From: Naegleria gruberi
Lineage: Eukaryota
DNA length: 24,047 nt
Assembly: GCA_000004985.1 (NCBI GenBank)
Contig: GG738951.1
Strand: one strand, 5' to 3'
Shown here: one piece after another, positions 3-23,892 of the stretch
Layout: each line of letters begins with the position of its first letter
Numbering within the stretch: the first letter of the stretch is position 1
The notes under the pieces: generated by a model
Databases searched by the model: none
The model's input: the letters and a program-made list of their open reading frames with translations, nothing else
Told to the model about the DNA's origin: nothing
Position numbers and translations under genes: made by a program

Positions 3-906
3 TTAACAGGTGATTTAAAATATTATGAAATTGCTAAAAAAGCAACATTAAGTATTTTTAAATATAGAGATTTAAAAACTAATTTAATTGGTAATCATAT
101 AAATATAATGAATGGAGAATGGATACATCGTGAATCAGGTATAGGAGCATCAATTGATTCATATTTTGAATATCTATATAAGGGATTTATTTTATTTAAA
201 GATGAAGAATTATTAAATTTATTTAAAATTCATTATCAATCAATTTTAAAATATGTTTATAAAAATCCATGGTATTCAGATGTTGATATGAAATTTCCAA
301 AAATAACATTTGGATTATATAATTCATTAGCTTCATTTTGGCCAGGTGTACAAGCTTTATATGGTAATTATGAAATTGCTAAAAAGTCAATTATTGCTAT
401 ACATGGTATTTGGAGAAAATATGGAAGTATACCTGAAGGTTTTAATATTTTAATTTCAAAAGCACAAAAAGGTCAATTACCATATCCATTAAGACCTGAA
501 TTAATTGAAAGTATTTATCATTTATTTAAATTTGATGGTTCACGTGATTCTAATTATCTATATATGGCAAGAGATTTTTATACTAGTTTGGAAATTAATA
601 CAAAAACTAAATGTGGATATGCTGTTATTGATAATGTTGAAACTTTAAAATTAAATGATAGAATGGAATCTTTCTTTTTATCTGAAACTTTAAAATATTT
701 ATATTTAATTTTTGATTTTAATAATTTTGTACATTATAATAATCAAACAAATTCAGAAGAATTATTATTCACTTTTAATACTGAAGCACATTTAATTCCT
801 TTAAATTTAAATGCCTATTTAAAAAATATGATCCTTATTTTAATGAAAATAGATTTTTACATGATTTTTCAAAAAAATCAGCAATTTTTAAATAAAATAT
901 TTATTT
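3..906 (+). CDS. Glycoside hydrolase family 47, EDEM-like (ER degradation-enhancing alpha-mannosidase-like) protein; internal fragment, with the 5' end off-window and the 3' end running into the gap
   Basis: The frame is open from nt 3 (LTGDLKYYEIAKKA...) to nt 906. The translation carries GH47/EDEM signature blocks: GIGASIDSYFEYLYKGFILF, YPLRPELIESIYHLF, KCGYAVIDNV..DRMESFFLSETLKYLYLIFD, FNTEAHLIP. There is no GT dinucleotide in about the last 110 nt before the gap, so no obvious intron donor there. Confidence 0.85.
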
Positions 907-2220
907 NNNNNNNNNNNNNNNNNNNNNNNNNNNNNNNNNNNNNNNNNNNNNNNNNNNNNNNNNNNNNNNNNNNNNNNNNNNNNNNNNNNNNNNNNNNNNN
1001 NNNNNNNNNNNNNNNNNNNNNNNNNNNNNNNNNNNNNNNNNNNNNNNNNNNNNNNNNNNNNNNNNNNNNNNNNNNNNNNNNNNNNNNNNNNNNNNNNNNN
1101 NNNNNNNNNNNNNNNNNNNNNNNNNNNNNNNNNNNNNNNNNNNNNNNNNNNNNNNNNNNNNNNNNNNNNNNNNNNNNNNNNNNNNNNNNNNNNNNNNNNN
1201 NNNNNNNNNNNNNNNNNNNNNNNNNNNNNNNNNNNNNNNNNNNNNNNNNNNNNNNNNNNNNNNNNNNNNNNNNNNNNNNNNNNNNNNNNNNNNNNNNNNN
1301 NNNNNNNNNNNNNNNNNNNNNNNNNNNNNNNNNNNNNNNNNNNNNNNNNNNNNNNNNNNNNNNNNNNNNNNNNNNNNNNNNNNNNNNNNNNNNNNNNNNN
1401 NNNNNNNNNNNNNNNNNNNNNNNNNNNNNNNNNNNNNNNNNNNNNNNNNNNNNNNNNNNNNNNNNNNNNNNNNNNNNNNNNNNNNNNNNNNNNNNNNNNN
1501 NNNNNNNNNNNNNNNNNNNNNNNNNNNNNNNNNNNNNNNNNNNNNNNNNNNNNNNNNNNNNNNNNNNNNNNNNNNNNNNNNNNNNNNNNNNNNNNNNNNN
1601 NNNNNNNNNNNNNNNNNNNNNNNNNNNNNNNNNNNNNNNNNNNNNNNNNNNNNNNNNNNNNNNNNNNNNNNNNNNNNNNNNNNNNNNNNNNNNNNNNNNN
1701 NNNNNNNNNNNNNNNNNNNNNNNNNNNNNNNNNNNNNNNNNNNNNNNNNNNNNNNNNNNNNNNNNNNNNNNNNNNNNNNNNNNNNNNNNNNNNNNNNNNN
1801 NNNNNNNNNNNNNNNNNNNNNNNNNNNNNNNNNNNNNNNNNNNNNNNNNNNNNNNNNNNNNNNNNNNNNNNNNNNNNNNNNNNNNNNNNNNNNNNNNNNN
1901 NNNNNNNNNNNNNNNNNNNNNNNNNNNNNNNNNNNNNNNNNNNNNNNNNNNNNNNNNNNNNNNNNNNNNNNNNNNNNNNNNNNNNNNNNNNNNNNNNNNN
2001 NNNNNNNNNNNNNNNNNNNNNNNNNNNNNNNNNNNNNNNNNNNNNNNNNNNNNNNNNNNNNNNNNNNNNNNNNNNNNNNNNNNNNNNNNNNNNNNNNNNN
2101 NNNNNNNNNNNNNNNNNNNNNNNNNNNNNNNNNNNNNNNNNNNNNNNNNNNNNNNNNNNNNNNNNNNNNNNNNNNNNNNNNNNNNNNNNNNNNNNNNNNN
2201 NNNNNNNNNNNNNNNNNNNN
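907..2220. other. Assembly gap (run of N)
   Basis: Uninterrupted n characters from 907 to 2220. The X-runs in the ORF track across this span are artefacts. Confidence 1.
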
Positions 2221-4054
2221 TGAAGTAGATCTATTACTTGTAGTAGTAGAAATACCTCTTGGTGATTTTTGATTCATTGAATCTAATAAATTAGCAGATT
2301 GACCACGTGGTGATTTAGGGTTATATAAACCACCACCAATCATACTATCCATTTTAAGAGAAGGTAATGCTGTAGATGTATTTAATTGATCTAATTGATC
2401 ATTATTATCAATTAAATTCCATTGAAATATAGTCAAATCACCACCACCACATGATAATAATTTTGTAATTCTTTCATTTTCAATATTATAATGTATAAAT
2501 TTAACATTTGTAACATGACTACAATGACCAATATAAGAATAACCAAATGGTTTAATAATTGGACATGGATAATGATATAAAGATAACATTGTTGTATCTT
2601 CACCTACTATAATTAATTCATTTTCATAATCAACATGACATGTATTAACATCTGTTCCATTAAAATCTTGTTTCCAAATACCTCTAACTGTCCATCCTAA
2701 TGGACATGTCATTGAATTCCATTCTATATTTTCTATATTTGAACAATTACTTAATTTTTTACTATTTAAATCCCATAATAATATTTCATAATCACCTGAA
2801 TTACTTTTTAAATAATTACCACATTTGGAAATATCTAAATGTGTAATAAATGATGAATGTCCTATTAATTTACCAATATATTTATAATCTCCACTACCAC
2901 TCTTTAAACAATTATATAAATAAATATAATTATCATGACTACCAACTGCTAATAAAGTACCATCATGATTATAAGATAGAGTTGTAATTTCTTCATTTGA
3001 ATCTTTACGTGTATATAATGGTTCTTCTGTAAATGTATAATTTTCTAAATTAAAACCATATATAAATAAATGACCTTCTTTAGAAGTGAATGCAACATGT
3101 TCATTTGAAGGTGAAACACATACACCTCTCAATTCTAATGATGAATTTAATTTTAATAATGAGGCGTGTTTTCTATTTTCACAATTCCATACAATAACTC
3201 TACCATCATCTGAACATGTTACAAATAAAGGTAATTCTTTAAATGTATCTAATCCCCATAATTGTTTTAACATGGTTCCAAAATGTGAAATTAATAACAA
3301 TTCAATTTCACCATTTTCTTTAATTAAATATAAATCACCATTTGCTTTACTAGCATATACATTATTATCATATTTAGAATGTGTTATATTTTTAACAAAT
3401 CCATTTATAGTAATACTTTTATAACATTCAATAAATGAATTATTAAATTTCCAATATTTAACTTGACCATCTTTACCACCACTAATAAAACCATAATTAA
3501 ATTTACTATTTTTATCATATAATGGATATAAAGTAAAAACATTACCATGATGTCCATTTATAGTATTAATTAATTTACCATCTCTAAATAAATAAATAGA
3601 ACCATCTTCACATCCAACATAGGCATCTTGATTTTTCATATTAAAACATAGAGAATGTAAATTTTGTAAAGTACCTTTACTTCCAAATATACCTGATTTA
3701 AATGTTAAATCTTTAGTATTATAAATTTTTAATACTTTTTTACCACAAATATAAATTTGTGAATCATCAGGTGAAAATTGTAAATCAAATATTTCACTTG
3801 ATAAACATTTTGTACTTGCAATTAATTCATTCTTTTTCCAATTATATAATAATATAATAGATGATGTATCATTACCACCTACTGTTACTAATAATTCTCC
3901 TGAATTGGAAAAACTAGTTGCTAATACTCCTCCATTTTTAAAATGTAAATGTGTATCTAATTTAGTAATTGGTTCTTTTATATCATGACTATCCCATATA
4001 TATATCATATCATCTTTACCTATTTGTCCACTTGCAAATATATATTCATTTGGA
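2221..4054 (-). CDS. EMAP-like (EML family) WD40 beta-propeller protein, exon 2; the 3' end is lost in the gap
   Basis: About 611 codons are open on the minus strand from the gap edge to 4054. WD40-like repeats run throughout (e.g. GHHGNVFTLYPL, FISGGKDGQVKYW, VTCSDDGRVIVWN, LAVGSHDNYIYLY, LSCGGGDLTIFQW). An AG acceptor at 4056-4055 (minus) joins exon 1 in phase, giving ...TIAK-H-PNEYIFASGQIGKDDMIYIWD. This parallels the EML 'HPD...IATGQ' segment that follows the HELP motif. Confidence 0.85.
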
Positions 4055-4800: not shown

Positions 4801-4919
4801 TTATCTCTTAATCATTGTGTAAACTCCTCCTTCCAATCAAAATAGTTCCAGTTCAATGATTGTTGATTCTGACATGCCACTTTAAAAAGTGTGAATATTC
4901 TAAACTCACATTAAAAAAA

Positions 4920-9476: not shown

Positions 9477-10682
9477 TCACTTCTTGATTTTAATTTTAGT
9501 TTCTAAATTTGAACAATTAATGAAAGATGTATTTTTAATAACATTATTTAAATCAACATTAAATTTAATTGATAAATAATTTAATTTTTTTAAATATTTT
9601 AAAAAGGAAATTGTTGTAACATTTTCAATTTTTAAATATTTTATATTTTCTAAAATAATATTATTATCATTTATATTAAAATTATTAATATAAATACTTT
9701 CTAAATTAAATATTACTGAATTTATATTATTTAATTGTAAATTACCCATATAAAAATGTTTTAAATTTTTTAAAGTTCCATTTAATAAATATTCCCAAAT
9801 TAATTCATTTTCTAATTTATATACAGCTATATTTATTTTTAATTTTAAAATATTTTGTAAATAAATTGATTCAAATAAATATTTTAATATATTTGGATTT
9901 TTAATAGAAATTTCTAAACTTTGTAAATTTTTAAATTTTTCTAACATTTCACATAATTGTTCATCAATTATTTTAGTATATTTAAAATGTTTTAAATTAT
10001 TTGGAATTAAACTTGTTATTATATTACAATCTATTAATTCTAAATCTTCTAAATATGGAAAATTAATATTTGTAAATATTGAATTATAACTTTCAATTGA
10101 TAAATTTTTTAATTTTAATTTTCTTAAATTACAAGTTATTAAATTATTAGGAATTTCAAATTTTAAATTTTTACTTGAATCAAATATTAATAAATTATTT
10201 AATTTGTTAAAATCTATAATTATATTATTATTTATATTGTCATTATTTTTAAATTTTAAAATTTCAAGTTGATTCCAATTTGTATTTAAAATTAAAGATT
10301 CAACATTTTCAAAATAATTTGAAATTTCGATAATTTTAATTAATTTTAAACATGATGGTTGATTTATAATTAAATTAATTAAATAATTAGATATTTTAAT
10401 ATTTTTAGATAAAATTAAATGAATTGAAGAAAATAAATTAGATTTCATTATATTAATAAATTCATCACTTAATTTAGTTCCATATTCGGATAATGATATT
10501 TGTTCATCATTTAATTTTGAATGTTTAAATATTTGATAATCATTACATTTTAATATAAATTTATATTCTTCAAATTTAAATCTAATTATTTTACATGTGT
10601 TACATAAATTAATCCATTCTTTTATTCCGTTAGTAAAGGGTATTATTTGATGGTAGAATATTTCTGATGGCAAGTTTTGCAT
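9477..10682 (-). CDS. F-box-like / leucine-rich-repeat protein, 401 aa
   Basis: The ATG at 10682 is preceded by an A-run on the minus strand. The N-terminus LPSEIFYHQIIPFTNGIKEWINLCNTCKII fits the loose F-box pattern (LPxEI..I....L..L..VCK.). The rest is LxxLxL-type repeats (FPYLEDLELIDCNII, FKNLQSLEISI, LKNLKHFYMGNLQL, IKYLKIENV, LKKLNYLSIKF). Confidence 0.8.
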   Translation of the reverse strand: MQNLPSEIFYHQIIPFTNGIKEWINLCNTCKIIRFKFEEYKFILKCNDYQIFKHSKLNDEQISLSEYGTKLSDEFINIMKSNLFSSIHLILSKNIKISNYLINLIINQPSCLKLIKIIEISNYFENVESLILNTNWNQLEILKFKNNDNINNNIIIDFNKLNNLLIFDSSKNLKFEIPNNLITCNLRKLKLKNLSIESYNSIFTNINFPYLEDLELIDCNIITSLIPNNLKHFKYTKIIDEQLCEMLEKFKNLQSLEISIKNPNILKYLFESIYLQNILKLKINIAVYKLENELIWEYLLNGTLKNLKHFYMGNLQLNNINSVIFNLESIYINNFNINDNNIILENIKYLKIENVTTISFLKYLKKLNYLSIKFNVDLNNVIKNTSFINCSNLETKIKIKK

Positions 10683-12891: not shown

Positions 12892-13031
12892 GATGGTGAT
12901 GATGCTGAAATGAAGTAAAATTGGCAGTTGATGGAAAAGTTACAAGGTTGATGTAGAATTACTTACCTGGCATTTATTGTGTTTTTTTGATTCGAATTTT
13001 CAGTCGAAAGCCAGTTTTTAGACGAAAAAAA

Positions 13032-13565
13032 ATGTCTTTACAAAATAACAAGGAACAAGGTATCTATTTTGAAAGACGCTGTGATTCTTGCAAGAAATCT
13101 TTACACACAGTATTTTACCAACCAATTTCAAGTGCAAAATTCAAGATTCAAATTAAATGTAACTGTGAAAACTCTGAGTGTAAAAATTTTACTAAGGAAA
13201 AACTTGGATGTTGTTTATGTGATTATAGTTGTGTCAAATCTGAAACGTTGTTGAAACATATTACAAAAGAACATTCCATCAAGTTTCCAAAAGTGTGTTG
13301 TGATAAACATTACACCACAATGGAGGAATACGTCGATCATATCAATTTTAAACATCAAACCAACACAAAGAGTGCAATAGAACATCAACCGTTAAAGAGA
13401 TTATGTTTATCTAAACCAGAAAAACCAGTAAAGCTCAGCTCCTCTGCAAATACATCTTTACAGCATGTCATTACTCCTCAAAATGATACATTGGAGTGCA
13501 AGAATGTCTTTCATTTGATCAAATTCAAACCAGATGTAAATATTTCAAAACTCAACAACCAATAA
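13032..13565 (+). CDS. C2H2 zinc-finger protein, 177 aa
   Basis: The ATG at 13032 follows an A8-9 run; the track start at 12987 is TTG. There is a classical C-X2-C-X12-H-X4-H finger at 13209-13274 (CCLCDYSCVKSETLLKHITKEH), followed by a degenerate second finger (CCDKHYTTMEEYVDHINFKH). Additional Cys pairs lie N-terminally (CDSCKK, CNCENSECK). An adjacent open frame (13496-13753, GTG start in the track) may be a frameshifted or spliced continuation. Confidence 0.55.
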   Translation: MSLQNNKEQGIYFERRCDSCKKSLHTVFYQPISSAKFKIQIKCNCENSECKNFTKEKLGCCLCDYSCVKSETLLKHITKEHSIKFPKVCCDKHYTTMEEYVDHINFKHQTNTKSAIEHQPLKRLCLSKPEKPVKLSSSANTSLQHVITPQNDTLECKNVFHLIKFKPDVNISKLNNQ

Positions 13566-13879: not shown

Positions 13880-16861
13880 TTAAAGTTTTGATTGTTGTTT
13901 GTTGGAATCATTGTTAATAATTTCATGAGCAGCAATTCTTCCATAAACAACACATTCCAATAAACTATTACCAGCCAATCTATTTAAACCATGTAATCCA
14001 CCTGATGCTTCACCTGCAGTATATAAACCTTGAATTGGTTCAACAGTATTATCATTTGCAATTCTTCTTAAAACTCTTGCCTTTTCATCAAATAATAAAC
14101 CACCATGTGTATAGTGAATGGAAGGTGTAATTCTTGAAATATAAATGGTATCATTTAAATTAAATAGAGTTGGGAATAAATTCTTTCCAAAATCATCTAC
14201 AATTGAATTATTTAATTGATATTGATTATAAAAATGATTATAATTTTCAATAGTATTAATTAATTGTTGTAAATTTAAATGTTGTAATGATTCTTGATGA
14301 GCATGTTGTAAATTATTAAATTTCTTAATAAAACCTTTACCAATATAAAAAGATAATAAAGATTCACTAAAAGATTTAGCAACATGATCATTCATAATCA
14401 TATAAGCAGTAGTATGTCCATTTTCAATTTCAGATTTACAATTTTTAAATATCATATCAGAAACATAATCTCTTCTACCTAATTCATTACAAAATCTATT
14501 ACCATTCTCATTAACTATAATACCACCATAAGCACGTAATGCTTCAGCTGCTAAAAATACTGTCATACTTTTAGGATTTAATGGATCAATAAATCCAGTT
14601 GGATGTACTTGAATAGATTCCATATGTATTAATGAGGCTCCTAATTCTTTAACTGCCATTCTAATACCTTCTCCATTAGCAAATTTACCATTAGTAGTTG
14701 GTAATTTTGATAATTGTGGTGCATATTCTTTTAAATATCCTTCTCTATCTGCTGCATATCCACCTGTTGTTAATACAACTGATGATACTTTTAATTCTTT
14801 AACTTGTTGTTCTTTTAATTCTTTTAATTGTTCTGATTGTGATTCTTTTGATTGTTCTTTTGATTCTTGTTCAAGAGTAATATATTTAATACCTGTTACA
14901 ATTGTATTATTATTTTCATCAATTAAAGTTAAAAAACCAATCATTTTAGTACTTGTCATTACAGTAACTCTATCATTTAAATTATTCTTAATATAATTTA
15001 ATAATTTAAAAGTAATTTCAGCACCAACATTCATTGCACGTCCAACTTTAGGTGGAGCAGAACGATGTGTACGTGCCATTGAATGACCACCACATTGTGT
15101 TACTAATTCCATTCCAATACCATGATTTTCTAAAAATTCAATTGCACTTGTTGATTCTTTAACAAGTGTTGAAATTAATTTAGGATTACCTGCTTGTTTA
15201 CCTGATTTAGTAGTATCAGATATAAATAAATCAACTGTATCAGGAATTGATAATCTTTCCTGTGCTTTAGTTAATACTCCATTAATACCTGATGTTGCTT
15301 TAGCACTATTACCACCTGTACGTTCTTCTTTTTCAATTAAATAAACATAACCTCCTAATTCTGCAATTTCAATAGCTGCTGATAATCCTGCAAGTCCACC
15401 TCCAATCACTGCTACTTTTATTGGTGATGATGATGATTGATTAGTTGTAGATGTAGATTCAGTAGTGGTGGTGGATTGTGTAGTAGATTGTTCAACAGTT
15501 GGAGTGTCCATACTTGGTTGATTGGTAGTAGTGGTATCGGATTGTTTTTGATCACTTGTTGGAGTAGTAGTGATAGGTGTAGTAACCTCTTCTTGTTGTT
15601 GTTTAGTAGTAGTAGTAGGAGTGGTGCTAGTAGGAGTAGTTGTTGTTGGTTCTTCTTGTTGTTGTTGTTCAACTTTAGCCTTTGATTCTACTTGTTTGGT
15701 TTCAGCAGTAACTGTAGGGGTTGTTGTTGGAGTACTTGGAGTAGCAGCAGTAGTAGTAGTAGTTTCAGCTTGAGGTGTTGTTGTTGTAGTTGATGTGCTT
15801 GGTTGAGTGGTGGAAGTAGTGGTGGTTGTTGGGTTCAAATTTGGAATTTGTTTTTTATGAATCTTATTTTGGATAAATTCTAAAGCTTGTTCAAATTCAC
15901 TATTTAAATTTGTATAAATTTTAATCCTATCACTATTATTTAATAAAATATTATTTAAATTATTATTATTACTATCAATAATATTATCATCATAATTATA
16001 AAAATAATTAAATTCTTCAAATAATGTAATTGTATTTTGATTAATAGAATTATGAATACTATTATTATCATTTTCATTTAAATTATTTAAATTACAATGT
16101 TTTAATAATGGTAATAAAATAGATCTAGTAGGTAATATATTTGTAATTAATTTATATAATTTTTTAAATAAAATAGATGATGTCTTTTTACCTAATATTT
16201 TATTATAAATAATTGAAATTAATTTATGAATAGATTTATAATCTTTAATTAATTCAATTATTTTATCAATTGTAATCTTTTCATTAATAATTGAATTATT
16301 AATTGGTAATATTGGTGAAAATAAAACTATATTTTCAATATTTTCAATATTATTATTTAATTGTTGTAATTGTTTATAATATAATAAAGTATAAAAAGCA
16401 CCTAATTGATGACCAATTAAACTATATGAATTTAATTTTAATTCATTAACAATAGATTGAATAGAATTCATAATTAAATAATATTGTTCTTTAGAACATG
16501 AACAAGTATTTAAAGTATTATTGTTAGTATTTAAAAAAGATTGACCAATACCAGGTCTATCAAATTTAATTAATCTAATAGAATGTTTTTTAGCTAATTC
16601 ATCTTCATTTAAATGTCCATATGAAAGTGATCCAGGTGTAGGATGTAATTGAATAACTGCATGTCCATTCAAATCACCCAATTCAATATAGGCTATTTTA
16701 GATCCATCCTTTTCAATATATTTTAATTTATTACTAATATTACTATTTAATAATGATTCTGTATGTTTAGGATTTTTATATAAATTAACATTACTTGAAT
16801 ACAATAATGATAAGACTATTGCAATCAAGGCTGTTGTGAGAATAAGTAATTTACTCAACAT
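13880..16861 (-). CDS. Fusion protein, 993 aa: N-terminal signal-anchor, alpha/beta-hydrolase-like module, Thr/Pro/Gln-rich linker, and soluble FAD-dependent fumarate reductase (FRD1/OSM1 / flavocytochrome c flavin-domain type)
   Basis: This is a single uninterrupted ORF whose ATG is preceded by A9. The hydrophobic N-terminus is MLSKLLILTTALIAIVLSLLYSS. The hydrolase-fold blocks are VIQLHPTPGS, FDRPGIGQS and SLIGHQLGAF. The linker spans about 15425-15840. The reductase blocks are VAVIGGGLAGLSAAIE (dinucleotide fold), TGGNSAKATSGINGV, DTTKSG, CGGHSMARTHR, IQVHPTGFIDP, AAEALRAYGGIIVNENGNRFCNELGRRDYV, and GLYTAGEASGGLHGLNRLAGNSLLECVVYGR. Confidence 0.9.
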   Translation of the reverse strand: MLSKLLILTTALIAIVLSLLYSSNVNLYKNPKHTESLLNSNISNKLKYIEKDGSKIAYIELGDLNGHAVIQLHPTPGSLSYGHLNEDELAKKHSIRLIKFDRPGIGQSFLNTNNNTLNTCSCSKEQYYLIMNSIQSIVNELKLNSYSLIGHQLGAFYTLLYYKQLQQLNNNIENIENIVLFSPILPINNSIINEKITIDKIIELIKDYKSIHKLISIIYNKILGKKTSSILFKKLYKLITNILPTRSILLPLLKHCNLNNLNENDNNSIHNSINQNTITLFEEFNYFYNYDDNIIDSNNNNLNNILLNNSDRIKIYTNLNSEFEQALEFIQNKIHKKQIPNLNPTTTTTSTTQPSTSTTTTTPQAETTTTTAATPSTPTTTPTVTAETKQVESKAKVEQQQQEEPTTTTPTSTTPTTTTKQQQEEVTTPITTTPTSDQKQSDTTTTNQPSMDTPTVEQSTTQSTTTTESTSTTNQSSSSPIKVAVIGGGLAGLSAAIEIAELGGYVYLIEKEERTGGNSAKATSGINGVLTKAQERLSIPDTVDLFISDTTKSGKQAGNPKLISTLVKESTSAIEFLENHGIGMELVTQCGGHSMARTHRSAPPKVGRAMNVGAEITFKLLNYIKNNLNDRVTVMTSTKMIGFLTLIDENNNTIVTGIKYITLEQESKEQSKESQSEQLKELKEQQVKELKVSSVVLTTGGYAADREGYLKEYAPQLSKLPTTNGKFANGEGIRMAVKELGASLIHMESIQVHPTGFIDPLNPKSMTVFLAAEALRAYGGIIVNENGNRFCNELGRRDYVSDMIFKNCKSEIENGHTTAYMIMNDHVAKSFSESLLSFYIGKGFIKKFNNLQHAHQESLQHLNLQQLINTIENYNHFYNQYQLNNSIVDDFGKNLFPTLFNLNDTIYISRITPSIHYTHGGLLFDEKARVLRRIANDNTVEPIQGLYTAGEASGGLHGLNRLAGNSLLECVVYGRIAAHEIINNDSNKQQSKL

Positions 16862-17152
16862 TTTTTTTTCACTTTTTATTGTTGATCAAATCCCTTTGTT
16901 GCTGCTTGTTGTATAAGTGATAGTAAGTGAAAGGGTACTATTTGAGACATTTGAACATTTTCGTAAGGTTTAAAAATAGTCAATAGATCGATGTTTGTTG
17001 TTGTTGTATTCAATCTTCATAATATAATTGTACTCAATTTTACTTTATTTTTCTCTCTTTTAAACTTCTCAAATAATCAATGTCATATAAAAATCAATAT
17101 AATAAAAATCAATATAATTCTTAAATAATATATATATTATATAAAAAAAAAT

Positions 17153-18016
17153 CTATTGTCTTGGTAAAATAGAATCTTTTAAATCTTGATTTTGTAACAT
17201 TGACCATTCTTGATCTGAAAAGATGAATAAATGAGAAGGTAAAGGTTTACCATTTGGTAATTTAACATTGGGTATTCTTAATTCATCAAAGAAAGGATGA
17301 GCTAAAGCATCCATTGGAGTAATTCTACGTTTTGGATCATATTGTAATAATTTTGTAATTAAATCAACACTATTATTCATTTCAATGAAAGGATCAATTT
17401 GTGAACCAGAATTTGAACCATTATTAGCTTGATAATTACGTTGTAAAAATTGAAATCTATCTGCAAAAACTTGATCCCATGGATTTGGTTTAACTTGTGG
17501 AAATTTAAATTCAGTATAATTCTTATTCATTGCTAAAATATCTTGTTTAGAAGGAGCACCTAATACTTTAATAATTTCAACTAATTGATCAACTGAACTT
17601 TCACCTTGAAATAAAGGAGTACCTAACATTAATTCACCCATAACACATCCACATGACCATACATCAACTGAACAAGTATATTTTGTTGATTGAAATATTA
17701 ATTCAGGTGCTCTATAATATCTTGAACAAATATATGATACGTTAGGTTCTCCTTCTTTTAATTGTTTTGCATTTCCAAAATCACATAATTTTAAAATTCC
17801 ACTCACTGGATCTATTAATAAATTTTGTGGTTTTATATCACGATGACAAATACCAAGTGAATGTATATATATCACTGAACGTAATAATTGAAATACAAAT
17901 AATTTAACATAAATACTTGGTACATAGGAATTATGTTTAGCATAATTCATACAAAATCTATAAACTGTATCAGGTACATATTCTAATACTAAATTTAAAT
18001 ATACTTCTTCTGGATC
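17153..18016 (-). CDS. GSK-3 family (CMGC) protein kinase, exon 2
   Basis: An AG acceptor lies at 18018-18017. The translation is [21 protein letters not shown]...[94 protein letters not shown]. It is near-collinear with animal GSK3 through subdomains V-XI. Confidence 0.9.
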
Positions 18017-18094
18017 CTATTATTTTAAATTGTTTTAAATTGTTTTTTAAATATTATTATAGATATAAATATTATTATTATAAATATTATTATT

Positions 18095-18148
18095 ATTAAA
18101 AATATTAAAATTATTAAAAATATTAAAATTATTAAAAATATTATAAAT
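18095..18148. repeat. 18-bp AT-only tandem repeat (about 3 units) inside the GSK-3 intron
   Basis: ATTAAAAATATTAAAATT occurs at 18095-18112 and 18113-18130, with a diverged third unit at 18131-18148. It lies within the 144-nt intron 18017-18160. Confidence 0.75.
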
Positions 18149-18160
18149 ATAAAAACTTAC

Positions 18161-18787
18161 TCTATCACCTCTTGAATAAAAATAATTTTTCAATTCAACA
18201 ACATTTGGATGTGATAATGTTTTCATTACTTGTAATTCTCTATTTTTAAATCTCTTATCTTGAAGTACTTTCTTAATAGCTACTATATCTCCTGTTTCTT
18301 GTACTTTAGCTAGAAATACAACACCAAAACTACCATTACCAATCACTTTAACAGCACTATAAGAAACTACTTTGCCTTGTCGTGTTGGTGGTGATGTTGT
18401 TGAGGTTGCTGCTGCTGTAGTAGTAGTAGTAGTAGTAGATGAATTATTATTTGGTTGTTGTTGTTGTTGAATAGATGAATTGACTAGGCTAGTGGAAGGT
18501 TGTTGTTTTGAATTGATGGATTTGGTTTTTCTAGTTGGTGATTCATTTCCAGGTTGATTAGTTATATTATTTGTATTATTAGTGGTTGTAGTAGTACTTG
18601 TTGTTGTAGATTTTGATGAAGATTGATAATTATTATAGGATCTATTGGTTTTATCATTATTTCCAATTTGAAGATAATTAAAATTATTAATTAAATTATC
18701 CATATTATTATTGTTAGTAGTATTTGTATTGGAATTTGAATTGTTATTATTATTATTATTATTAATGAAGGAATTATTATTGTACAT
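18161..18787 (-). CDS. GSK-3 family protein kinase, exon 1 (low-complexity N-terminus plus kinase subdomains I-IV)
   Basis: The ATG is at 18787. About 150 aa of Asn/Thr/Gln/Ser-rich low complexity come first. Then follows [70 protein letters not shown], with a GTAAGT donor at 18160 in phase 0. The exon is 627 nt, or 209 codons. Confidence 0.85.
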
Positions 18788-19546: not shown

Positions 19547-21289
19547 TTATTCCAATTCTTTAAATTTTAATTTAAAATGATATGGCATATATTTAAATGG
19601 AGGTAAATCTTGACAATCTTTTTGATAACTATTCATTCCTATTATATTTTTACAATATAAATAAAAACTAAAATTATCAGAGTGAGCAGCTAAAAAATGT
19701 AATGGATTTCTTAATTGATTATTTGATATTTTACCAAGTTGAGGAGATTTCATTAATATTTTATCAAATAAAACATGACATGGTTGATTTTGTCTATATA
19801 TAGTTAATATAGTATCACCATTTTCATTTTGATATAATAAATCTTTTTCATTAGCATATTCTAATATAATAGATGAAATTGGTAATAATTTAGGAAGGTT
19901 AATAAATGATAAAAATGGTATTGTAATAATAGGTTGATTAAATGTTAATGGAGTTATACATTTAATTGGTTCAAATATTTCTGAATATTTAATTTCTTCA
20001 TTTTCAAAACAATTTCTTAAATAATTTACAATTTCTAATATTGAACCATTTAATTCTACTACTGTTGTACTCATCATTACATGTGATATTATACAATTTG
20101 TTAATAATTTAAAGAATTTTTTATCATTATTATTATTAATATTATATTCAGTATTATTATTATTATTATTATTATCATTATATTCAGTATTATTAATATT
20201 AATATTAATAATATTATTATATTTAAATCTCAATAATGGAATTATTAATTTAGAACAATTTGAACTTGAATAGGGTAATATTTCATCATACATTTCATTT
20301 ATATTCCATCCATATTTAATAGCTAAATCAATTTTATAAAAATCTAATGTTGAATATTCAATTCTTCCATTTTGATATTCATTTACTATATATATACAAT
20401 ATAAAAGTATTGATGTATCTCTAAAATATAAATCACATGGAGTTGCTTCAATTGGAAATTTTTCATTAATAAAAAGTAGATCCATAATTATTTTACGATC
20501 AAATAATTCTTCATGTGTAAATATAAATTTAAAATATACTTTAATATTAATTTTTTGCATTTTAATTATTGATTTAACAATTAATTCATTTGTTAAATAT
20601 GGAGGACTATTAATTGATATTTTTATCATTTCATTTGATAACATGTTATTATTATTATTATTATTTAAAATATTATTATTATTTAAAGTATTATTATTAT
20701 TGTTATTATTAATATTATTTAAAGTATTATTATTTAAAGTATTATTATTAATATAATTATTAATATAATCATTAATATTATTATTAATATTATTAGAAGG
20801 TATTAAATTTATTATATTATTTCCATTATAAAATAATGATAATGGTTTTAATAATAAATCATAATCAATTTCTTCAATAATTTCATTAATTGTTTCTTCT
20901 TCTTGTTCTAAACAAGATATATTTAATTCTTTTAAATTTGGAAATACATTTGAAATATCTTGAATTAAATCTATACCAAATTCATCAAATTGTTTTGGTA
21001 AAATAATTTCAAATATTTCTAATTTTTCATGTTTCATAATATTATTACATTCATATAGAATATTATCATCCAATCCATAATATTGTAATTTATTTAATTC
21101 AACACAACATTCTAATATAAAAGGTAATAATTCATCATTATTATAATATAATATTGAAATTGATTTTAAAAATGTATTCTTTCCAATTGAATCAAATGAT
21201 TTGGCCAATGTTGTAGCATGTTTTTCATTATCATGAGTAAATAATGATGATAATTGTAATGGTATAATACTATTATAAATATCAAACAT
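19547..21289 (-). CDS. Hypothetical 580-aa ORF with an LRR-like middle and ankyrin-like C-terminus; probably the 3' part of the same gene as 21301-22083
   Basis: It is a long ORF with Asn-rich inserts. It contains FPNLKELNISC-type LRR-like segments and C-terminal ankyrin-like signatures (NENGDTILTIY..., LRNPLHFLAAHSDN). Its ATG lies only 11 nt after the stop of the upstream same-strand ORF, which leaves no room for a promoter. Confidence 0.7.
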   Translation of the reverse strand: MFDIYNSIIPLQLSSLFTHDNEKHATTLAKSFDSIGKNTFLKSISILYYNNDELLPFILECCVELNKLQYYGLDDNILYECNNIMKHEKLEIFEIILPKQFDEFGIDLIQDISNVFPNLKELNISCLEQEEETINEIIEEIDYDLLLKPLSLFYNGNNIINLIPSNNINNNINDYINNYINNNTLNNNTLNNINNNNNNNTLNNNNILNNNNNNNMLSNEMIKISINSPPYLTNELIVKSIIKMQKINIKVYFKFIFTHEELFDRKIIMDLLFINEKFPIEATPCDLYFRDTSILLYCIYIVNEYQNGRIEYSTLDFYKIDLAIKYGWNINEMYDEILPYSSSNCSKLIIPLLRFKYNNIINININNTEYNDNNNNNNNTEYNINNNNDKKFFKLLTNCIISHVMMSTTVVELNGSILEIVNYLRNCFENEEIKYSEIFEPIKCITPLTFNQPIITIPFLSFINLPKLLPISSIILEYANEKDLLYQNENGDTILTIYRQNQPCHVLFDKILMKSPQLGKISNNQLRNPLHFLAAHSDNFSFYLYCKNIIGMNSYQKDCQDLPPFKYMPYHFKLKFKELE

Positions 21290-22083: not shown

Positions 22084-22142
22084 TTTTATTATTGTGAAAA
22101 TTGTTAAATGTCATTAATTATTATCATGTAATTAGTACTTCG

Positions 22143-22591
22143 NNNNNNNNNNNNNNNNNNNNNNNNNNNNNNNNNNNNNNNNNNNNNNNNNNNNNNNNNN
22201 NNNNNNNNNNNNNNNNNNNNNNNNNNNNNNNNNNNNNNNNNNNNNNNNNNNNNNNNNNNNNNNNNNNNNNNNNNNNNNNNNNNNNNNNNNNNNNNNNNNN
22301 NNNNNNNNNNNNNNNNNNNNNNNNNNNNNNNNNNNNNNNNNNNNNNNNNNNNNNNNNNNNNNNNNNNNNNNNNNNNNNNNNNNNNNNNNNNNNNNNNNNN
22401 NNNNNNNNNNNNNNNNNNNNNNNNNNNNNNNNNNNNNNNNNNNNNNNNNNNNNNNNNNNNNNNNNNNNNNNNNNNNNNNNNNNNNNNNNNNNNNNNNNNN
22501 NNNNNNNNNNNNNNNNNNNNNNNNNNNNNNNNNNNNNNNNNNNNNNNNNNNNNNNNNNNNNNNNNNNNNNNNNNNNNNNNNNNNNNNNNNN
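22143..22591. other. Assembly gap (run of N)
   Basis: Uninterrupted n characters from 22143 to 22591. Confidence 1.
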
Positions 22592-22593
22592 AT

Positions 22594-23892
22594 GTAGATT
22601 TGACTAATCCATATATTCTTCCTCCTCCTATTTATTCTCAAATGGCATTTCCTGTTAACAAATCTGAAACTAGCCTATTTCAACAACCTATGAACAATTC
22701 TCAACAACAACTATTTGATACCACCAACATTACTACTGCTACTCCTAATGCACCTAATACTCCTACTATTACCAATGTTCATGAATCATCAAGTAAGAAG
22801 AGGAAGGCTAAATCCAAAGCCTATGAAATTGTCGATTCTACTACCATCACTGCTACTACTCCCAAATCAAAAAAGAGAAAGACAAAAGCTTCAAATGATT
22901 CAATTCCAAACACTTCATCATCTTCTCCAAACGATTCAGCAAGCCTTGGAAATAGTTCAACTATCACTACTACTACTGCTACTCAATCACCTAAAAGGAG
23001 TAGAAAATTAAATTTAGGACTTCAAAGTAATGATTTTAAAACATTAATAGAATTCAATAGATTTCTTTCAGAATTGAATGAACAAGAAGATATGAAACAA
23101 TCAATTGAAGCAATACTTCCAAGATTTAAATTTGATTTTTTAAAGGCTTTAATTGTTTCATGTAGGAAAATTACACCTAAATATTTAACTAATTATAGAT
23201 CTCATCAAACAAAGTATCAAACATTACTTCAAATTATTTCTGTAAAATCTGAAACTTTAAATTTAATTAAATTAATAACAAATGAAAATGATAATAACAT
23301 TTGTAATAATAATAATAATACTATTAAATCAGTTGTAAATAATTTTGAAATGGATAATTATAATGATATTGTTAACAATACAAAACAAACTACTAATGAT
23401 GTTCCAACAATTAGTCAATCAAATGAAGGAATAGTATTAGATTGGCATTCTTATTGTGATATTACATTAGATTTAATTCAATCAACATATCTTCCATTTT
23501 CCACTACTACAACTAATAATATCCTTAATAATACTAATGAATTTAATACTGTTAATAATAATAATATTGAAATTAATAATACTAATACTAATAATAATAA
23601 TAATAATAATACTAATACAGTTAATAATAATGTAATTGATGATTCATTTAGTTTTTCAGATTTTCTTGATTGTTCTTCTGAAATTGTTCCATCCAATGAA
23701 AGAAACAATGAAGAATTAATTAATGATTTAATGAAACAATTAAATGAAAAGAATCAACAAATTGAACAATTAAATAGAATGTTTCAATTACAAGAAACTT
23801 ATAATCAAAATCTTTTAAATTTAATTCAAACATTTAAAAATAATTTATATGAATTTGATCAAATTAATAATAATAATAATAATTTTATTTAA
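22594..23892 (+). CDS. Hypothetical Ser/Thr/Asn-rich protein with basic clusters and a coiled-coil-like C-terminus; the 5' end is uncertain
   Basis: The frame is open from the gap edge (VDLTNPYILPPP...). The track start at 22600 is TTG, and the first ATG in frame is 22642. Three basic clusters are present (SSKKRKAKSK, KSKKRKTKAS, SPKRSRKL). The C-terminal heptad-like segment is ELINDLMKQLNEKNQQIEQLNRMFQLQETYNQNLLNLIQTF. No family was recognised. Confidence 0.7.
   Translation, partial: VDLTNPYILPPPIYSQMAFPVNKSETSLFQQPMNNSQQQLFDTTNITTATPNAPNTPTITNVHESSSKKRKAKSKAYEIVDSTTITATTPKSKKRKTKASNDSIPNTSSSSPNDSASLGNSSTITTTTATQSPKRSRKLNLGLQSNDFKTLIEFNRFLSELNEQEDMKQSIEAILPRFKFDFLKALIVSCRKITPKYLTNYRSHQTKYQTLLQIISVKSETLNLIKLITNENDNNICNNNNNTIKSVVNNFEMDNYNDIVNNTKQTTNDVPTISQSNEGIVLDWHSYCDITLDLIQSTYLPFSTTTTNNILNNTNEFNTVNNNNIEINNTNTNNNNNNNTNTVNNNVIDDSFSFSDFLDCSSEIVPSNERNNEELINDLMKQLNEKNQQIEQLNRMFQLQETYNQNLLNLIQTFKNNLYEFDQINNNNNNFI

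What the first reader, a model, noticed from the sequence alone, without database searches (positions are those of the whole stretch)
13880..16861. One ORF joins a signal-anchored alpha/beta-hydrolase-like module, a mucin-like linker and a soluble fumarate reductase
Seen directly: there are 993 codons with no stop and no plausible intron. A hydrophobic N-terminal segment is followed by about 300 aa with alpha/beta-hydrolase blocks (xxLHPTPGS, FDRPGIGQS, GHQLG elbow). Next comes about 140 aa that is almost pure Thr/Pro/Gln/Ser/Glu. The last part is a complete FRD1/OSM1-type FAD fumarate reductase domain (GGNSAKATSGING, GGHSMARTHR, HPTG, C-terminal AGEASGGLHGLNRLAGNSLLEC).

Established knowledge: yeast soluble fumarate reductases are stand-alone flavoenzymes. 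Trypanosomatid NADH-FRDs carry ApbE-like and cytochrome-b5-reductase-like extensions. I do not know of a hydrolase-fold N-terminal partner.

Inference: a signal anchor plus a Thr/Pro linker (a typical O-glycosylation substrate) suggests a secretory-pathway or membrane-tethered location. That would be unusual for a fumarate reductase, and it recalls the proposed role of yeast Osm1 in re-oxidising flavoproteins of oxidative folding.
Basis: partly seen in the sequence, partly recalled or inferred. Interest (0 to 1): 0.65.

Follow-up and report, generated by a model that had tools for sequence, protein, structure and literature searches.

The report
Membrane-anchored fumarate reductase with dead hydrolase
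This Naegleria gruberi gene joins a membrane anchor and a catalytically dead hydrolase-like module to a complete yeast-Osm1-type fumarate reductase; the fusion is found only in Naegleria and related amoebae, has not been described, and carries conflicting signals about where in the cell it works.

Summary
The organism is Naegleria gruberi, not a dictyostelid: the protein is 100% identical to XP_002668799.1, already named 'fumarate reductase'. The C-terminal half is a complete Osm1/flavocytochrome-c-type fumarate reductase, above the TIGR01813 cutoff with all six catalytic residues. The N-terminal module has an alpha/beta-hydrolase fold (AlphaFold2 plus Foldseek, and HMMER hits to about 95 hydrolases). 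It is catalytically dead: Gln152 replaces the nucleophile, the catalytic His is missing, and the late strands are cut down.

The fusion is conserved in N. fowleri, Willaertia, N. lovaniensis, Acrasis and one environmental eukaryote. Their reductase domains form one clade (100% bootstrap), so it arose once. The mucin-like linker is specific to Naegleria. ER-directed fumarate reductases turn out to be common (signal peptide plus KDEL, HDEL, ERO1 fusions), so an ER location would not be unusual. Location and the role of the dead module remain unresolved. This is a new variant of a known enzyme family, of moderate interest.

The parts
13880..16861 (-). Complete single-exon ORF, 993 aa plus stop; identical to N. 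gruberi XP_002668799.1 / EFC36055.1 'fumarate reductase'
16787..16861 (-). N-terminal hydrophobic segment (aa 1-25; uncharged core L5-Y21), a signal-anchor or signal-peptide-like element
   Evidence: Kyte-Doolittle 19-residue maximum of 2.36, the only such segment apart from the Rossmann beta1 strand. Predicted as a helix at 2-20. An equivalent segment is present in every fused orthologue and in the stand-alone Pyxidicula relative.
15842..16741 (-). Degenerate alpha/beta-hydrolase-fold module (aa 41-340), a pseudo-hydrolase
   Evidence: AlphaFold2 model: pLDDT 71.9, pTM 0.71, core 85-98. Foldseek against PDB: 1132 hits at E<=1e-3, led by epoxide hydrolases, Cif, haloalkane dehalogenases and BphD. 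Exhaustive HMMER: 100 hits at E<=1e-3, the scanned ones being Abhydrolase_1 proteins. Weak NCBIfam hits. No Pfam hit for this sequence itself.
16400..16414 (-). GHQLG (aa 150-154): former nucleophile elbow with Gln152 in place of Ser/Asp/Cys
   Evidence: Lies between strand 146-151 and helix 153-168 of the model. The alignment column reads Q/Q/Q in N. gruberi, N. fowleri and Willaertia; S in N. lovaniensis P0110; G in Acrasis, the environmental protein and Pyxidicula; S, D or C in bacterial relatives.
15422..15841 (-). Low-complexity Thr/Ser/Gln/Pro/Glu linker (aa 341-480); contains Met451
   Evidence: Composition; open-frame statistics and Met positions; not conserved in length or composition among orthologues.
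13919..15421 (-). Osm1/flavocytochrome-c-type FAD fumarate reductase domain (aa 481-981), catalytically complete
   Evidence: PF00890 at 1.3e-65. TIGR01813 at 370.5 bits against a cutoff of 285.45. Yeast Osm1 structure 5glg at 2e-83. Catalytic H753, E773, R776, R797, H916 and R961 align to Osm1 H281, E301, R304, R326, H435 and R477 (with PMC6242907).
13883..13891 (-). C-terminal Ser-Lys-Leu (aa 991-993), a canonical PTS1 tripeptide, followed by the stop codon at 13880-13882
   Evidence: -SKL is also the C-terminus of the Willaertia orthologue although the tails differ in length. It is absent from N. fowleri, whose genomic sequence ends ...DIMKKK*, and from the other fused proteins.

Best explanation
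The gene encodes one polypeptide: a membrane-tethered, heme-less, Osm1-type fumarate reductase found, as far as I could search, only in Heterolobosea.

Shown: the C-terminal domain has everything needed to reduce fumarate to succinate on a non-covalently bound FAD.

Inferred: it has no NADH-binding, heme or cytochrome-b5 partner domain, and it keeps most of Osm1's second-flavin pocket. So electrons most likely arrive at flavin level, from free reduced FAD/FMN or directly from a partner flavoprotein. The enzyme would then act as an oxygen-independent electron sink that keeps flavoproteins oxidised.

Shown: the N-terminal hydrophobic segment is conserved in all orthologues, and the module after it has an alpha/beta-hydrolase fold whose catalytic triad is destroyed in the N. 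gruberi / N. fowleri / Willaertia lineage.

Inferred: that module no longer hydrolyses anything. It serves as a folded, membrane-proximal stalk or docking module, and the variable low-complexity linker is a flexible tether that lets the reductase domain reach partners at the membrane surface.

Least certain step: I judge the most likely site to be the ER/endomembrane system with the bulk of the protein lumenal, like the ER isoform of Osm1 working with Ero1. The -SKL would then be used only by a minor or alternative form. I put about 0.8 on the architecture, the active reductase and the dead hydrolase, and about 0.4 on the ER-lumenal location.
For: One ORF with an in-frame stop upstream. Reductase domain above the curated TIGR01813 cutoff. 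All six Osm1/Fcc3 catalytic residues conserved, and six of nine second-flavin-pocket residues conserved or conservatively replaced: K521, T523, F769, L770, F838, Y839 (mapped onto PMC6242907). No Cyt-b5, ApbE, FAD_binding_6 or NAD_binding_1 hits.

Hydrolase fold. Triad loss. The fusion is conserved and monophyletic, with 100% bootstrap on the reductase domains. Kinase-to-FRD synteny holds in N. fowleri and Willaertia. The N-module evolves faster (28-42% identity) than the reductase domain (65%) within the same pairs, as expected for a non-catalytic module.

ER plausibility: an N-terminal hydrophobic segment is present in all members. Charge bias favours N-in/C-out for N. fowleri, N. lovaniensis P0110, Acrasis, the environmental protein and Pyxidicula. 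ER-directed homologues exist elsewhere: Osm1 (PMC5638582), signal peptide plus KDEL in P0135, HDEL in Monosiga P0131, and ERO1-FRD-Cyt-b5 fusions with signal peptides.
Against: The -SKL terminus of N. gruberi and Willaertia is pointless for a co-translationally translocated lumenal protein. Charge-rule orientation is weak or ambiguous precisely for these two proteins. There is no H/KDEL, no dedicated signal-peptide or TM predictor was available, and I could reach no localisation or expression data: the stored proteomics supplement of PMC8134430 is truncated.

Gln at the nucleophile position is conserved in all three group-A proteins, which hints at some retained role for the pocket. The N. lovaniensis paralogue keeps Ser-Asp-His, so the ancestral fusion may have been a true bifunctional enzyme. 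The full-length model was too poor to say whether the two modules dock (pTM 0.43). Two second-flavin-pocket residues differ from Osm1 (W295 to T767, P162 to A595).
Confidence: 0.6

Rival explanations
1. Peroxisomal fumarate reductase. The -SKL is a functional PTS1 and the reductase works in or on peroxisomes, as the PTS1-bearing FRDs of kinetoplastids and diplonemids work in glycosomes. There it would re-oxidise flavoproteins such as the PTS1-bearing acyl-CoA dehydrogenase of N. gruberi, which has no acyl-CoA oxidase. The N-terminal segment would be a membrane anchor with the bulk on the cytosolic or matrix side. Alternatively it is bypassed in a shorter isoform, or it makes the protein a dual-affinity organelle tether.
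For: Canonical -SKL at the extreme C-terminus of N. gruberi and of Willaertia although the tails differ by an 8-residue insertion. The trypanosomatid NADH-FRD homologues P0119-P0123 in my set (five of the ten) end in -SKL, -AKM or -AKI. 'FRD with a PTS1 is detected in all' kinetoplastids and diplonemids (PMC9512073). N. gruberi has a PTS1 acyl-CoA dehydrogenase but no acyl-CoA oxidase (PMC9512073) and prefers lipids as fuel (PMC6205838). Orientation by the charge rule is weak or ambiguous for exactly the two -SKL proteins. Proteins with an N-terminal organelle signal plus a PTS1 are documented (PMC7217942, PMC10906886).
Against: N. fowleri, the closest orthologue, ends in -KKK in genomic DNA. 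No other fused protein has a PTS1. A conserved N-terminal hydrophobic segment is not a feature of Pex5-imported matrix proteins. No localisation data are available. The only linker Met (M451) is expected by chance.
Confidence: 0.3
2. Bifunctional or ligand-binding enzyme. The N-terminal module is not inert. It either catalyses a non-canonical reaction using Gln152 and neighbouring residues, or it binds a hydrophobic ligand or cofactor in its lid pocket and feeds or regulates the reductase.
For: Gln is conserved at the nucleophile position in all three group-A proteins. The HPTPGS and FDRPGIGQS blocks are strongly conserved. The sister paralogue in N. lovaniensis retains Ser-Asp-His, so the original fusion probably joined an active hydrolase to the reductase.
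Against: No catalytic His and a cut-down beta7-beta8 region in N. gruberi. The lid region is low-complexity and poorly predicted (pLDDT below 50 over 187-261). The module diverges much faster than the reductase domain. Gly at the nucleophile position in Acrasis, the environmental protein and Pyxidicula shows that the nucleophile was lost repeatedly.
Confidence: 0.12
3. Two products from one locus. An internal promoter or start (for example Met451 in the linker) yields a free reductase with -SKL for peroxisomes, while the full-length form goes to the ER. This would parallel the two-ATG dual targeting of yeast Osm1.
For: Osm1 uses two in-frame ATGs for ER versus mitochondrial forms (PMC5638582; PMC6242907). 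It would reconcile the two conflicting signals. Each group-A linker contains a Met.
Against: There is no transcript evidence either way. A Met in a 40-140-residue linker is expected by chance. The fusion has been maintained as one ORF in at least six lineages.
Confidence: 0.1
4. Artefact: a contaminant (dictyostelid) scaffold, or a mis-assembly that joins two genes.
For: The scaffold is very AT-rich and small, with two assembly gaps.
Against: The protein groups with N. fowleri at 98% bootstrap inside a heterolobosean clade. The upstream kinase neighbour is shared with N. fowleri and Willaertia. The same fusion is a single ORF in independent assemblies. The gaps lie far from the ORF (907-2220 and 22143-22591).
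Confidence: 0.02

Closest known systems
Yeast soluble fumarate reductases Osm1 / Frd1 (PDB 5glg, 5zyn)
   Same: Best solved-structure match (E 2e-83 over the whole domain). Heme-less. The segment that H-bonds the non-covalently bound FAD in Osm1 (N73-S74) is conserved here as N518-S519. All six catalytic residues are conserved and most of the second-flavin pocket is kept. Osm1 also has an N-terminally targeted ER isoform that cooperates with Ero1 (PMC6242907, PMC5638582).
   Different: Osm1 is a stand-alone protein of about 500 aa with a short cleavable or alternative N-terminal signal. Here about 480 extra residues precede the reductase (anchor, pseudo-hydrolase, linker) and the protein ends in -SKL. 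Pocket residues W295 and P162 of Osm1 are Thr and Ala here.
Trypanosomatid NADH-dependent fumarate reductases (glycosomal FRDg and relatives)
   Same: Both are from Discoba; the reductase domain is homologous (about 42% identity to Willaertia); both are multi-domain; the glycosomal forms carry a C-terminal PTS1 (PMC9512073).
   Different: Trypanosomatid enzymes carry an ApbE-like N-terminal domain and a cytochrome-b5-reductase-like C-terminal domain (PF02424, PF00970, PF00175) that supply NADH electrons. None of these is present here. The reductase domains do not group together in the tree.
Bacterial flavocytochrome c3 fumarate reductases (Shewanella Fcc3; TIGR01813)
   Same: Passes the TIGR01813 cutoff. 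Same catalytic residues and clamp/flavin domain organisation.
   Different: Fcc3 has an N-terminal tetraheme domain as its electron input and is periplasmic. There is no heme domain here.
Alpha/beta-hydrolase pseudoenzymes and the epoxide-hydrolase / haloalkane-dehalogenase / MCP-hydrolase structural class
   Same: Same fold, with top Foldseek hits at probability 1.0. An HG-type motif (H73-P-T-P) and a DRPGxGxS block are present. The nucleophile is replaced, as in known inactive alpha/beta-hydrolase-fold proteins (own knowledge: neuroligins, ABHD5/CGI-58).
   Different: No specific curated family matches: no Pfam hit for this sequence, and NCBIfam hits are far below cutoffs. The late beta7-beta8 region is reduced to one strand in N. 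gruberi. The module is fused to an oxidoreductase and preceded by a membrane anchor.
Dual-signal proteins such as yeast Ptc5, Cat2 and Pxp2 (N-terminal organelle signal plus C-terminal PTS1)
   Same: An N-terminal hydrophobic or targeting element and a C-terminal PTS1 on one polypeptide (PMC7217942, PMC10906886).
   Different: Those proteins carry mitochondrial presequences. Here there is no positively charged amphipathic presequence before the hydrophobic core. No natural ER-anchored PTS1 protein was found in yeast (PMC10906886).

Membership tests
Soluble flavocytochrome-c / Osm1-type fumarate reductase (TIGR01813, PF00890) | Profile score above the curated cutoff | tested here: met
   TIGR01813 at 370.5 bits against a cutoff of 285.45; PF00890 at 222.7 bits against 20.4
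Soluble flavocytochrome-c / Osm1-type fumarate reductase (TIGR01813, PF00890) | Six catalytic / proton-relay residues (Osm1 H281, E301, R304, R326, H435, R477 = Fcc3 H365, E378, R381, R402, H504, R544) | tested here: met
   H753, E773, R776, R797, H916 and R961 in the HMMER alignment to 5glg and 1d4d, numbered from PMC6242907. Invariant in all fused orthologues.
Soluble flavocytochrome-c / Osm1-type fumarate reductase (TIGR01813, PF00890) | Non-covalent FAD (no flavinylated His as in SdhA/FrdA) | tested here: met
   The sequence reads GGNSAKATSG. N518-S519 align to Osm1 N73-S74, which H-bond the non-covalent FAD, and there is no His at that position. That the covalent His of SdhA/FrdA lies in this segment is my own knowledge.
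Soluble flavocytochrome-c / Osm1-type fumarate reductase (TIGR01813, PF00890) | Osm1-specific second flavin-binding pocket (K76, S78, P162, W295, F297, L298, N359, F362, Y363) | tested here: inconclusive
   K521, T523 (S to T), F769, L770, F838 and Y839 are kept. W295 becomes T767, P162 becomes A595 and N359 becomes L835.
Soluble flavocytochrome-c / Osm1-type fumarate reductase (TIGR01813, PF00890) | Fumarate reductase activity with reduced flavin as donor | not testable with these tools
   Needs an enzyme assay
Alpha/beta-hydrolase fold (Pfam clan AB_hydrolase; PF00561 Abhydrolase_1) | Three-dimensional fold: central beta-sheet with a strand-turn-helix elbow | tested here: met
   AlphaFold2 pTM 0.71 with core pLDDT 85-98. 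Foldseek against PDB gives 1132 hits at E<=1e-3, all of the 50 matches listed being alpha/beta-hydrolases.
Alpha/beta-hydrolase fold (Pfam clan AB_hydrolase; PF00561 Abhydrolase_1) | Pfam gathering threshold | tested here: not met
   No Abhydrolase hit at E<=1 for the N. gruberi module. The Willaertia orthologue passes marginally, at 28.0 bits against 25.8.
Alpha/beta-hydrolase fold (Pfam clan AB_hydrolase; PF00561 Abhydrolase_1) | Catalytic triad: nucleophile (Ser/Cys/Asp), acid, His | tested here: not met
   Gln152 is at the elbow. There is no His in the loop before the last helix. Only one strand (313-316) lies between the lid and the last helix. The module is therefore a structural member of the fold, not a catalytic one.
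Trypanosomatid NADH-dependent fumarate reductase | ApbE-like N-terminal domain and cytochrome-b5-reductase-like C-terminal domain | tested here: not met
   No PF02424, PF00970 or PF00175 hits, whereas the trypanosomatid homologues have them
PTS1-targeted peroxisomal proteins | C-terminal tripeptide [SAC][KRH][LM] | tested here: met
   -SKL in N. gruberi and Willaertia; not in N. fowleri (-KKK, checked in genomic DNA) or the other fused proteins
PTS1-targeted peroxisomal proteins | Experimental or proteomic peroxisomal localisation; no competing co-translational ER signal | not testable with these tools
   The stored supplement of the N. gruberi organelle proteome (PMC8134430) is truncated and does not show the protein. 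A competing N-terminal hydrophobic segment is present.
ER-lumenal fumarate reductases (Osm1 ER isoform; signal peptide + K/HDEL forms; ERO1 fusions) | N-terminal signal or anchor giving lumenal orientation | tested here: inconclusive
   A hydrophobic segment is present in all orthologues. The charge rule gives N-in/C-out for five of the seven hydrolase-module proteins analysed (six fused proteins plus stand-alone Pyxidicula), but is weak or ambiguous for N. gruberi and Willaertia (with a manual recount). No dedicated predictor was available.
ER-lumenal fumarate reductases (Osm1 ER isoform; signal peptide + K/HDEL forms; ERO1 fusions) | C-terminal K/HDEL retention signal or fusion to an ER enzyme | tested here: not met
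   The protein ends in -SKL and has no ERO1 domain. Retention could instead rely on the anchor.

The most novel reading that the evidence does not exclude
The protein is a natural dual-affinity protein. It is anchored by its N-terminus in the ER or another endomembrane with the bulk facing the cytosol, and its -SKL engages the peroxisomal import machinery. The fumarate reductase is thereby held at, or delivered into, peroxisomes. There it serves as the oxygen-independent, H2O2-free electron sink for the PTS1-bearing acyl-CoA dehydrogenase that replaces acyl-CoA oxidase in Naegleria. This would be a flavin-level counterpart of the NADH-linked glycosomal fumarate reductase of trypanosomes, with the dead hydrolase acting as the docking module.
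Probability: 0.1. Interest if true: 0.8.

Novelty: new variant of a known kind. Interest (0 to 1): 0.45.

Why it matters
Soluble fumarate reductases are emerging as oxygen-independent sinks that keep flavoenzymes oxidised: Ero1 in the ER and Erv1 in the mitochondrial intermembrane space. Which partner domain is fused to them tells us where their electrons come from.

This heterolobosean variant adds a new kind of partner, a membrane-anchored alpha/beta-hydrolase fold that has decayed into a pseudoenzyme in one paralogue but keeps its triad in another. It also combines an N-terminal anchor with a peroxisomal signal.

If localisation were resolved, it would show how an obligately aerobic, lipid-burning amoeba, and its brain-eating relative N. 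fowleri, uses fumarate as an auxiliary oxidant. The fusion was detected only in Heterolobosea and one unassigned environmental eukaryote in the searches run here, and no mammalian soluble fumarate reductase is known (own knowledge), so it could in principle be a selective target.

The comparative set gathered here also shows that ER-directed fumarate reductases are widespread in eukaryotes. That set includes natural ERO1-FRD-cytochrome-b5 fusions, which independently support the Osm1/Ero1 model derived from yeast.

Tried and rejected
1. Word-indexed homologue search with the N-terminal 340 aa returned nothing, not even the protein itself. This was a tool limitation, probably low-complexity words. 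The exhaustive HMMER search solved it.
2. The full-length word-indexed search was swamped by low-complexity words and gave only 4 hits. Repeating it with the low-complexity-free Willaertia plus environmental alignment worked better but still missed known members, so the absence of a 'group B' paralogue in N. gruberi cannot be concluded.
3. Pfam on the N-module gave no hydrolase hit. I did not take this as refuting the fold, because orthologue, profile and structure evidence agree.
4. The afdb50 fold library was unavailable.
tblastn found no additional fused genes.
6. Supplementary tables of PMC9512073 and PMC8134430 were searched for the accession and for 'fumarate reductase'. Nothing was found, but the proteome file is stored truncated, so this is uninformative.
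7. Opperdoes 2011 and Fritz-Laylin 2010 are not held.
8. The full-length AlphaFold2 model of Willaertia was meant to test inter-module docking. At pTM 0.43 from a 7-sequence alignment it is uninformative.
9. An internal Met as evidence for a short isoform was rejected as not significant: one Met in 140 residues is expected by chance.
10. A C-terminal di-lysine ER-retrieval signal in N. fowleri (-MKKK) was rejected, because the lysines are not at positions -3 and -4/-5.
11. Dictyostelid origin or contamination was rejected on the phylogeny and synteny.

Full report
**1. Observation**

The ORF is real. One search lists a single 993-codon ORF at 13880..16861 on the minus strand, starting with ATG. 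An in-frame TAA lies seven codons upstream of that ATG, so the hydrophobic N-terminus is the true start of the reading frame. Residues 341-480 are 82% Thr/Ser/Gln/Pro/Glu. In this AT-rich DNA (26% GC in the ORF) an open frame of 993 codons has P = 6e-41. The 140 linker codons staying open have P = 2e-3 at the linker's own composition and 5e-7 at intergenic composition. The linker is therefore coding sequence, not an intron.

**2. Source**

The protein is 100% identical over its full length to NCBI XP_002668799.1 / EFC36055.1 / UniProt D2W4F0, 'fumarate reductase [Naegleria gruberi strain NEG-M]'. Its contig is 24,047 bp, which is the whole window. The assignment to Naegleria is independently supported in two ways. 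First, the reductase domain groups with N. fowleri at 98% bootstrap inside a heterolobosean clade. Second, a protein kinase gene lies immediately upstream, as in N. fowleri and Willaertia magna.

**3. C-terminal half**

- Residues 482-981 match PF00890 (1.3e-65) and pass the curated cutoff of TIGR01813 'flavocytochrome c' (370.5 against 285.45 bits).
- The best solved structure is yeast Osm1 (5glg, E 2e-83, end to end), followed by the Shewanella Fcc3 enzymes.
- I mapped the HMMER alignment onto the numbering of the Osm1 structure paper (PMC6242907). All six catalytic and proton-relay residues are conserved: H753, E773, R776, R797, H916 and R961.
- The FAD-contacting GGNSAKATSG segment has no His for covalent flavinylation.
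- Six of the nine residues lining Osm1's second flavin pocket are kept or conservatively replaced (K521, T523, F769, L770, F838, Y839). W295, P162 and N359 of Osm1 are Thr, Ala and Leu here.
- There is no heme, cytochrome-b5, ApbE or NADH-binding domain.

The domain should therefore be an active fumarate reductase that receives electrons at flavin level, as Osm1 does. This last step is inference.

**4. N-terminal module**

Pfam finds nothing in residues 1-340. NCBIfam gives only weak matches to proline iminopeptidase and HsaD-type hydrolases over residues 40-166. An exhaustive HMMER search of 1.84 billion representatives found 100 proteins at E<=1e-3. Seven of the ten I scanned were ordinary Abhydrolase_1 proteins, and the Willaertia orthologue's own N-module passes the Abhydrolase_1 cutoff. 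An AlphaFold2 model built on a 19-sequence alignment has pTM 0.71 and pLDDT 85-98 over the core. Foldseek finds 1132 PDB matches at E<=1e-3, led by epoxide hydrolases, Cif, haloalkane dehalogenases and BphD-type C-C hydrolases. The fold assignment is therefore secure.

The enzyme, however, is dead.
- Gln152 sits at the strand-turn-helix elbow (strand 146-151, helix 153-168).
- The loop that should carry the catalytic His contains none.
- Only one strand (313-316) lies between the lid and the last helix, where a canonical fold has beta7, a helix and beta8. Willaertia still has both strands.

The residue at the nucleophile column in each protein:

| Protein(s) | Residue |
|---|---|
| N. gruberi, N. 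fowleri, Willaertia | Gln |
| N. lovaniensis P0110 (Asp and His also retained) | Ser |
| Acrasis, the environmental protein, stand-alone Pyxidicula | Gly |
| Bacterial and oomycete relatives | Ser, Asp or Cys |

**5. Conservation of the fusion**

The same architecture (N-terminal hydrophobic segment, hydrolase-fold module, linker, reductase) occurs in:
- N. fowleri XP_044566353.1 (1124 aa)
- Willaertia magna KAL9643942.1 (863 aa)
- N. lovaniensis C9374_013877 (1038 aa)
- Acrasis kona 'fumarate reductase' (771 aa)
- an unnamed environmental eukaryote (936-953 aa)

In Willaertia the gene is one uninterrupted exon. On the environmental contig it is one continuous ORF. In N. fowleri the gene model contains introns, but both modules lie in the same gene.

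A neighbour-joining tree of reductase domains (464 columns, 100 bootstraps) puts all six fused proteins in one clade at 100%. N. gruberi, N. fowleri and Willaertia form 'group A' at 100%. The triad-intact N. lovaniensis protein is its sister at 87%. So the fusion arose once in Heterolobosea, a duplication preceded the Naegleria/Willaertia split, and the Gln state is derived. Within group A the N-module is 28-42% identical while the reductase domain is 65% identical, which indicates relaxed constraint on the N-module. No paper in the searchable library mentions this architecture.

**6. Where does it act?**

Two signals conflict.

(a) The extreme N-terminus is the only strongly hydrophobic segment in every orthologue (Kyte-Doolittle 2.1-2.5). 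A simple flanking-charge count favours N-in/C-out, meaning a type II anchor or a signal peptide. This holds for N. fowleri, N. lovaniensis P0110, Acrasis, the environmental protein and Pyxidicula. The count is weak or ambiguous for N. gruberi and Willaertia (with my manual recount: delta -1 and 0).

(b) N. gruberi ends in ...NNDSNKQQSKL and Willaertia in ...GQTVSKL. This is the canonical PTS1, retained at the very end of tails that differ by an 8-residue insertion. N. fowleri ends in ...DIMKKK followed by a stop in genomic DNA. The other fused proteins have no PTS1.

Context from the homologues I collected:
- Five of the ten trypanosomatid NADH-FRD homologues (P0119-P0123) end in -SKL, -AKM or -AKI, matching the literature statement that FRD carries a PTS1 in all kinetoplastids and diplonemids (PMC9512073).
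- Other eukaryotic homologues are plainly ER-directed. P0135 has a signal peptide and ends in -KDEL. Monosiga P0131 ends in -HDEL.
- Several environmental eukaryotes encode signal peptide-ERO1-FRD-cytochrome b5 in one ORF (for example L017 6001-8919).
- Yeast Osm1 translated from its first ATG is ER-targeted and cooperates with Ero1 (PMC5638582; PMC6242907).

It also makes the ER model plausible here. The Thr/Pro-rich linker adds little: it is Ser/Thr-rich in N. fowleri, and short and ordinary in Willaertia, Acrasis and the environmental protein.

**7. Most likely mechanism**

I commit to a membrane-tethered, flavin-oxidising fumarate reductase. The reductase domain is the working part. The anchor fixes it to an endomembrane. 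The dead hydrolase fold is a folded stalk or docking module. The low-complexity linker is a flexible tether. I put about 0.8 on this core. I put about 0.4 on ER-lumenal orientation (an Osm1/Ero1-like role) and about 0.3 on a peroxisome-linked role.

The peroxisomal rival gains appeal from two facts. N. gruberi has a PTS1-bearing acyl-CoA dehydrogenase but no acyl-CoA oxidase (PMC9512073), and it prefers lipids as fuel (PMC6205838). A flavin-level electron sink would be useful there. Proteins with an N-terminal organelle signal plus a PTS1 are known to be dually targeted or to tether organelles (PMC7217942, PMC10906886). Neither location could be tested with these tools.

**8. Comparison with known families**

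It is a member of the soluble Osm1/flavocytochrome-c fumarate reductase family: the profile cutoff and the catalytic residues were tested and met. It is not a trypanosomatid-type NADH-FRD, because the ApbE and b5-reductase domains are absent. Its N-module belongs structurally to the alpha/beta-hydrolase fold but fails the catalytic-triad test, so it is a pseudoenzyme. The combination is a new variant of a known kind. The protein itself has been in databases since 2010 under a correct but incomplete name.

**9. Verdict**

- Observation: confirmed.
- Interpretation: partly supported.
- Novelty: new variant of a known kind.
- Interest: 0.45. This is a clean, conserved, undescribed domain fusion with an intriguing targeting conflict, but it is lineage-restricted and its distinctive module appears to be non-catalytic.

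Noticed in passing
L017 6001-8919 (ENA metagenome scaffold); proteins P0002, P0003, P0137, P0141, P0142: Natural triple fusions of signal peptide, ERO1 (PF04137), Osm1-type fumarate reductase and cytochrome b5 in one ORF. They occur in several unnamed environmental eukaryotes; P0137's cluster has 11 members. In L017 the gene is a single uninterrupted ORF on a compact eukaryotic contig with ribophorin II, RPA3 and kinase genes. This is 'Rosetta-stone' support for the Ero1-to-fumarate-reductase electron route proposed from yeast. I found no paper mentioning it.
   Followed up: partly
Proteins P0135 (484 aa), P0131 (Monosiga brevicollis, 938 aa), P0116 (Scytosiphon, 538 aa): Fumarate reductase homologues with ER-retention-type C-termini. 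P0135 has an N-terminal signal peptide and ends in -KDEL. Monosiga P0131 ends in -HDEL, and its N-terminal Med4 domain looks like a gene-model fusion. Scytosiphon P0116 ends in -KSEL. ER-lumenal soluble fumarate reductases seem widespread in eukaryotes.
   Followed up: partly
Protein P0110 (Naegleria lovaniensis C9374_013877, 1038 aa): A paralogue of the fused protein whose hydrolase module keeps a full Ser (AFSQG), Asp (ASDDV) and His (TTHFQ) triad and which lacks a PTS1. It is sister to the Gln-bearing group (87% bootstrap). The ancestral fusion may therefore have been a true hydrolase-reductase. Whether N. gruberi also has this paralogue could not be determined.
   Followed up: partly
Protein P0117 (Porcisia hertigi JKF63_01110, 620 aa): A trypanosomatid fumarate reductase that lacks the ApbE and b5-reductase domains. 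Instead it has a roughly 135-residue N-terminal extension with one transmembrane-like segment (VLVVCIGLFLLFVWVAL). Membrane-anchored short FRDs may be a wider theme in Discoba.
   Followed up: no
Protein P0015 (Pyxidicula operculata transcriptome, 371 aa); P0013 (JGI, 327 aa): Stand-alone relatives of the N-module. P0015 has its own N-terminal hydrophobic segment, while P0013 appears cut at its N-terminus and begins within one. Both carry a conserved juxtamembrane motif (P-x-x-N-T-x-H-L) that is also seen in Acrasis and N. lovaniensis P0110 (the environmental protein has a divergent PEPSTEHY). Pyxidicula also has Gly at the nucleophile position. The anchored hydrolase-fold unit therefore predates the fusion.
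   Followed up: partly
window 907-2220 and 22143-22591: Two runs of N (assembly gaps; 1763 N in total). The mechanical ORFs 108..2228(+), 901..4008(-), 22101..22607(+) and 22132..22641(-) run through them and are artefacts in those parts.
   Followed up: yes
window 17153-17950 and 18047-18787 (minus strand): A protein-kinase gene, GSK3-like by its motifs, split into two exons by an intron of about 96 nt, directly upstream of the fumarate reductase gene. The kinase-to-FRD order is conserved in N. fowleri (L001) and Willaertia (L016). In those two a Glyco_hydro_47 gene lies further upstream, which is not seen in the window.
   Followed up: partly
window 2221-4008 (minus strand) and 7585-8955 (plus strand): An EML-like double beta-propeller (WD40) protein, truncated by the assembly gap, and an ankyrin-repeat protein. 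ORFs 4860-6437(+), 9477-10682(-), 12987-13565(+), 19547-21289(-), 21301-22083(-) and 22600-23892(+) have no Pfam match.
   Followed up: no
window 16938-16958 (minus strand): A 6-codon upstream ORF (ATG TTC AAA TGT CTC AAA TAG) about 80 nt before the main ATG, out of context with the A-rich start site. Whether it lies in the 5' UTR is unknown.
   Followed up: no
window 14795-14881 (minus strand; aa 661-689 of the protein): A lineage-specific Glu/Gln/Lys/Ser-rich insertion (QESKEQSKESQSEQLKELKEQQVKELKVS) inside the flavin domain of the reductase. It is Ser-rich in N. fowleri and absent from Willaertia and Osm1.
   Followed up: no
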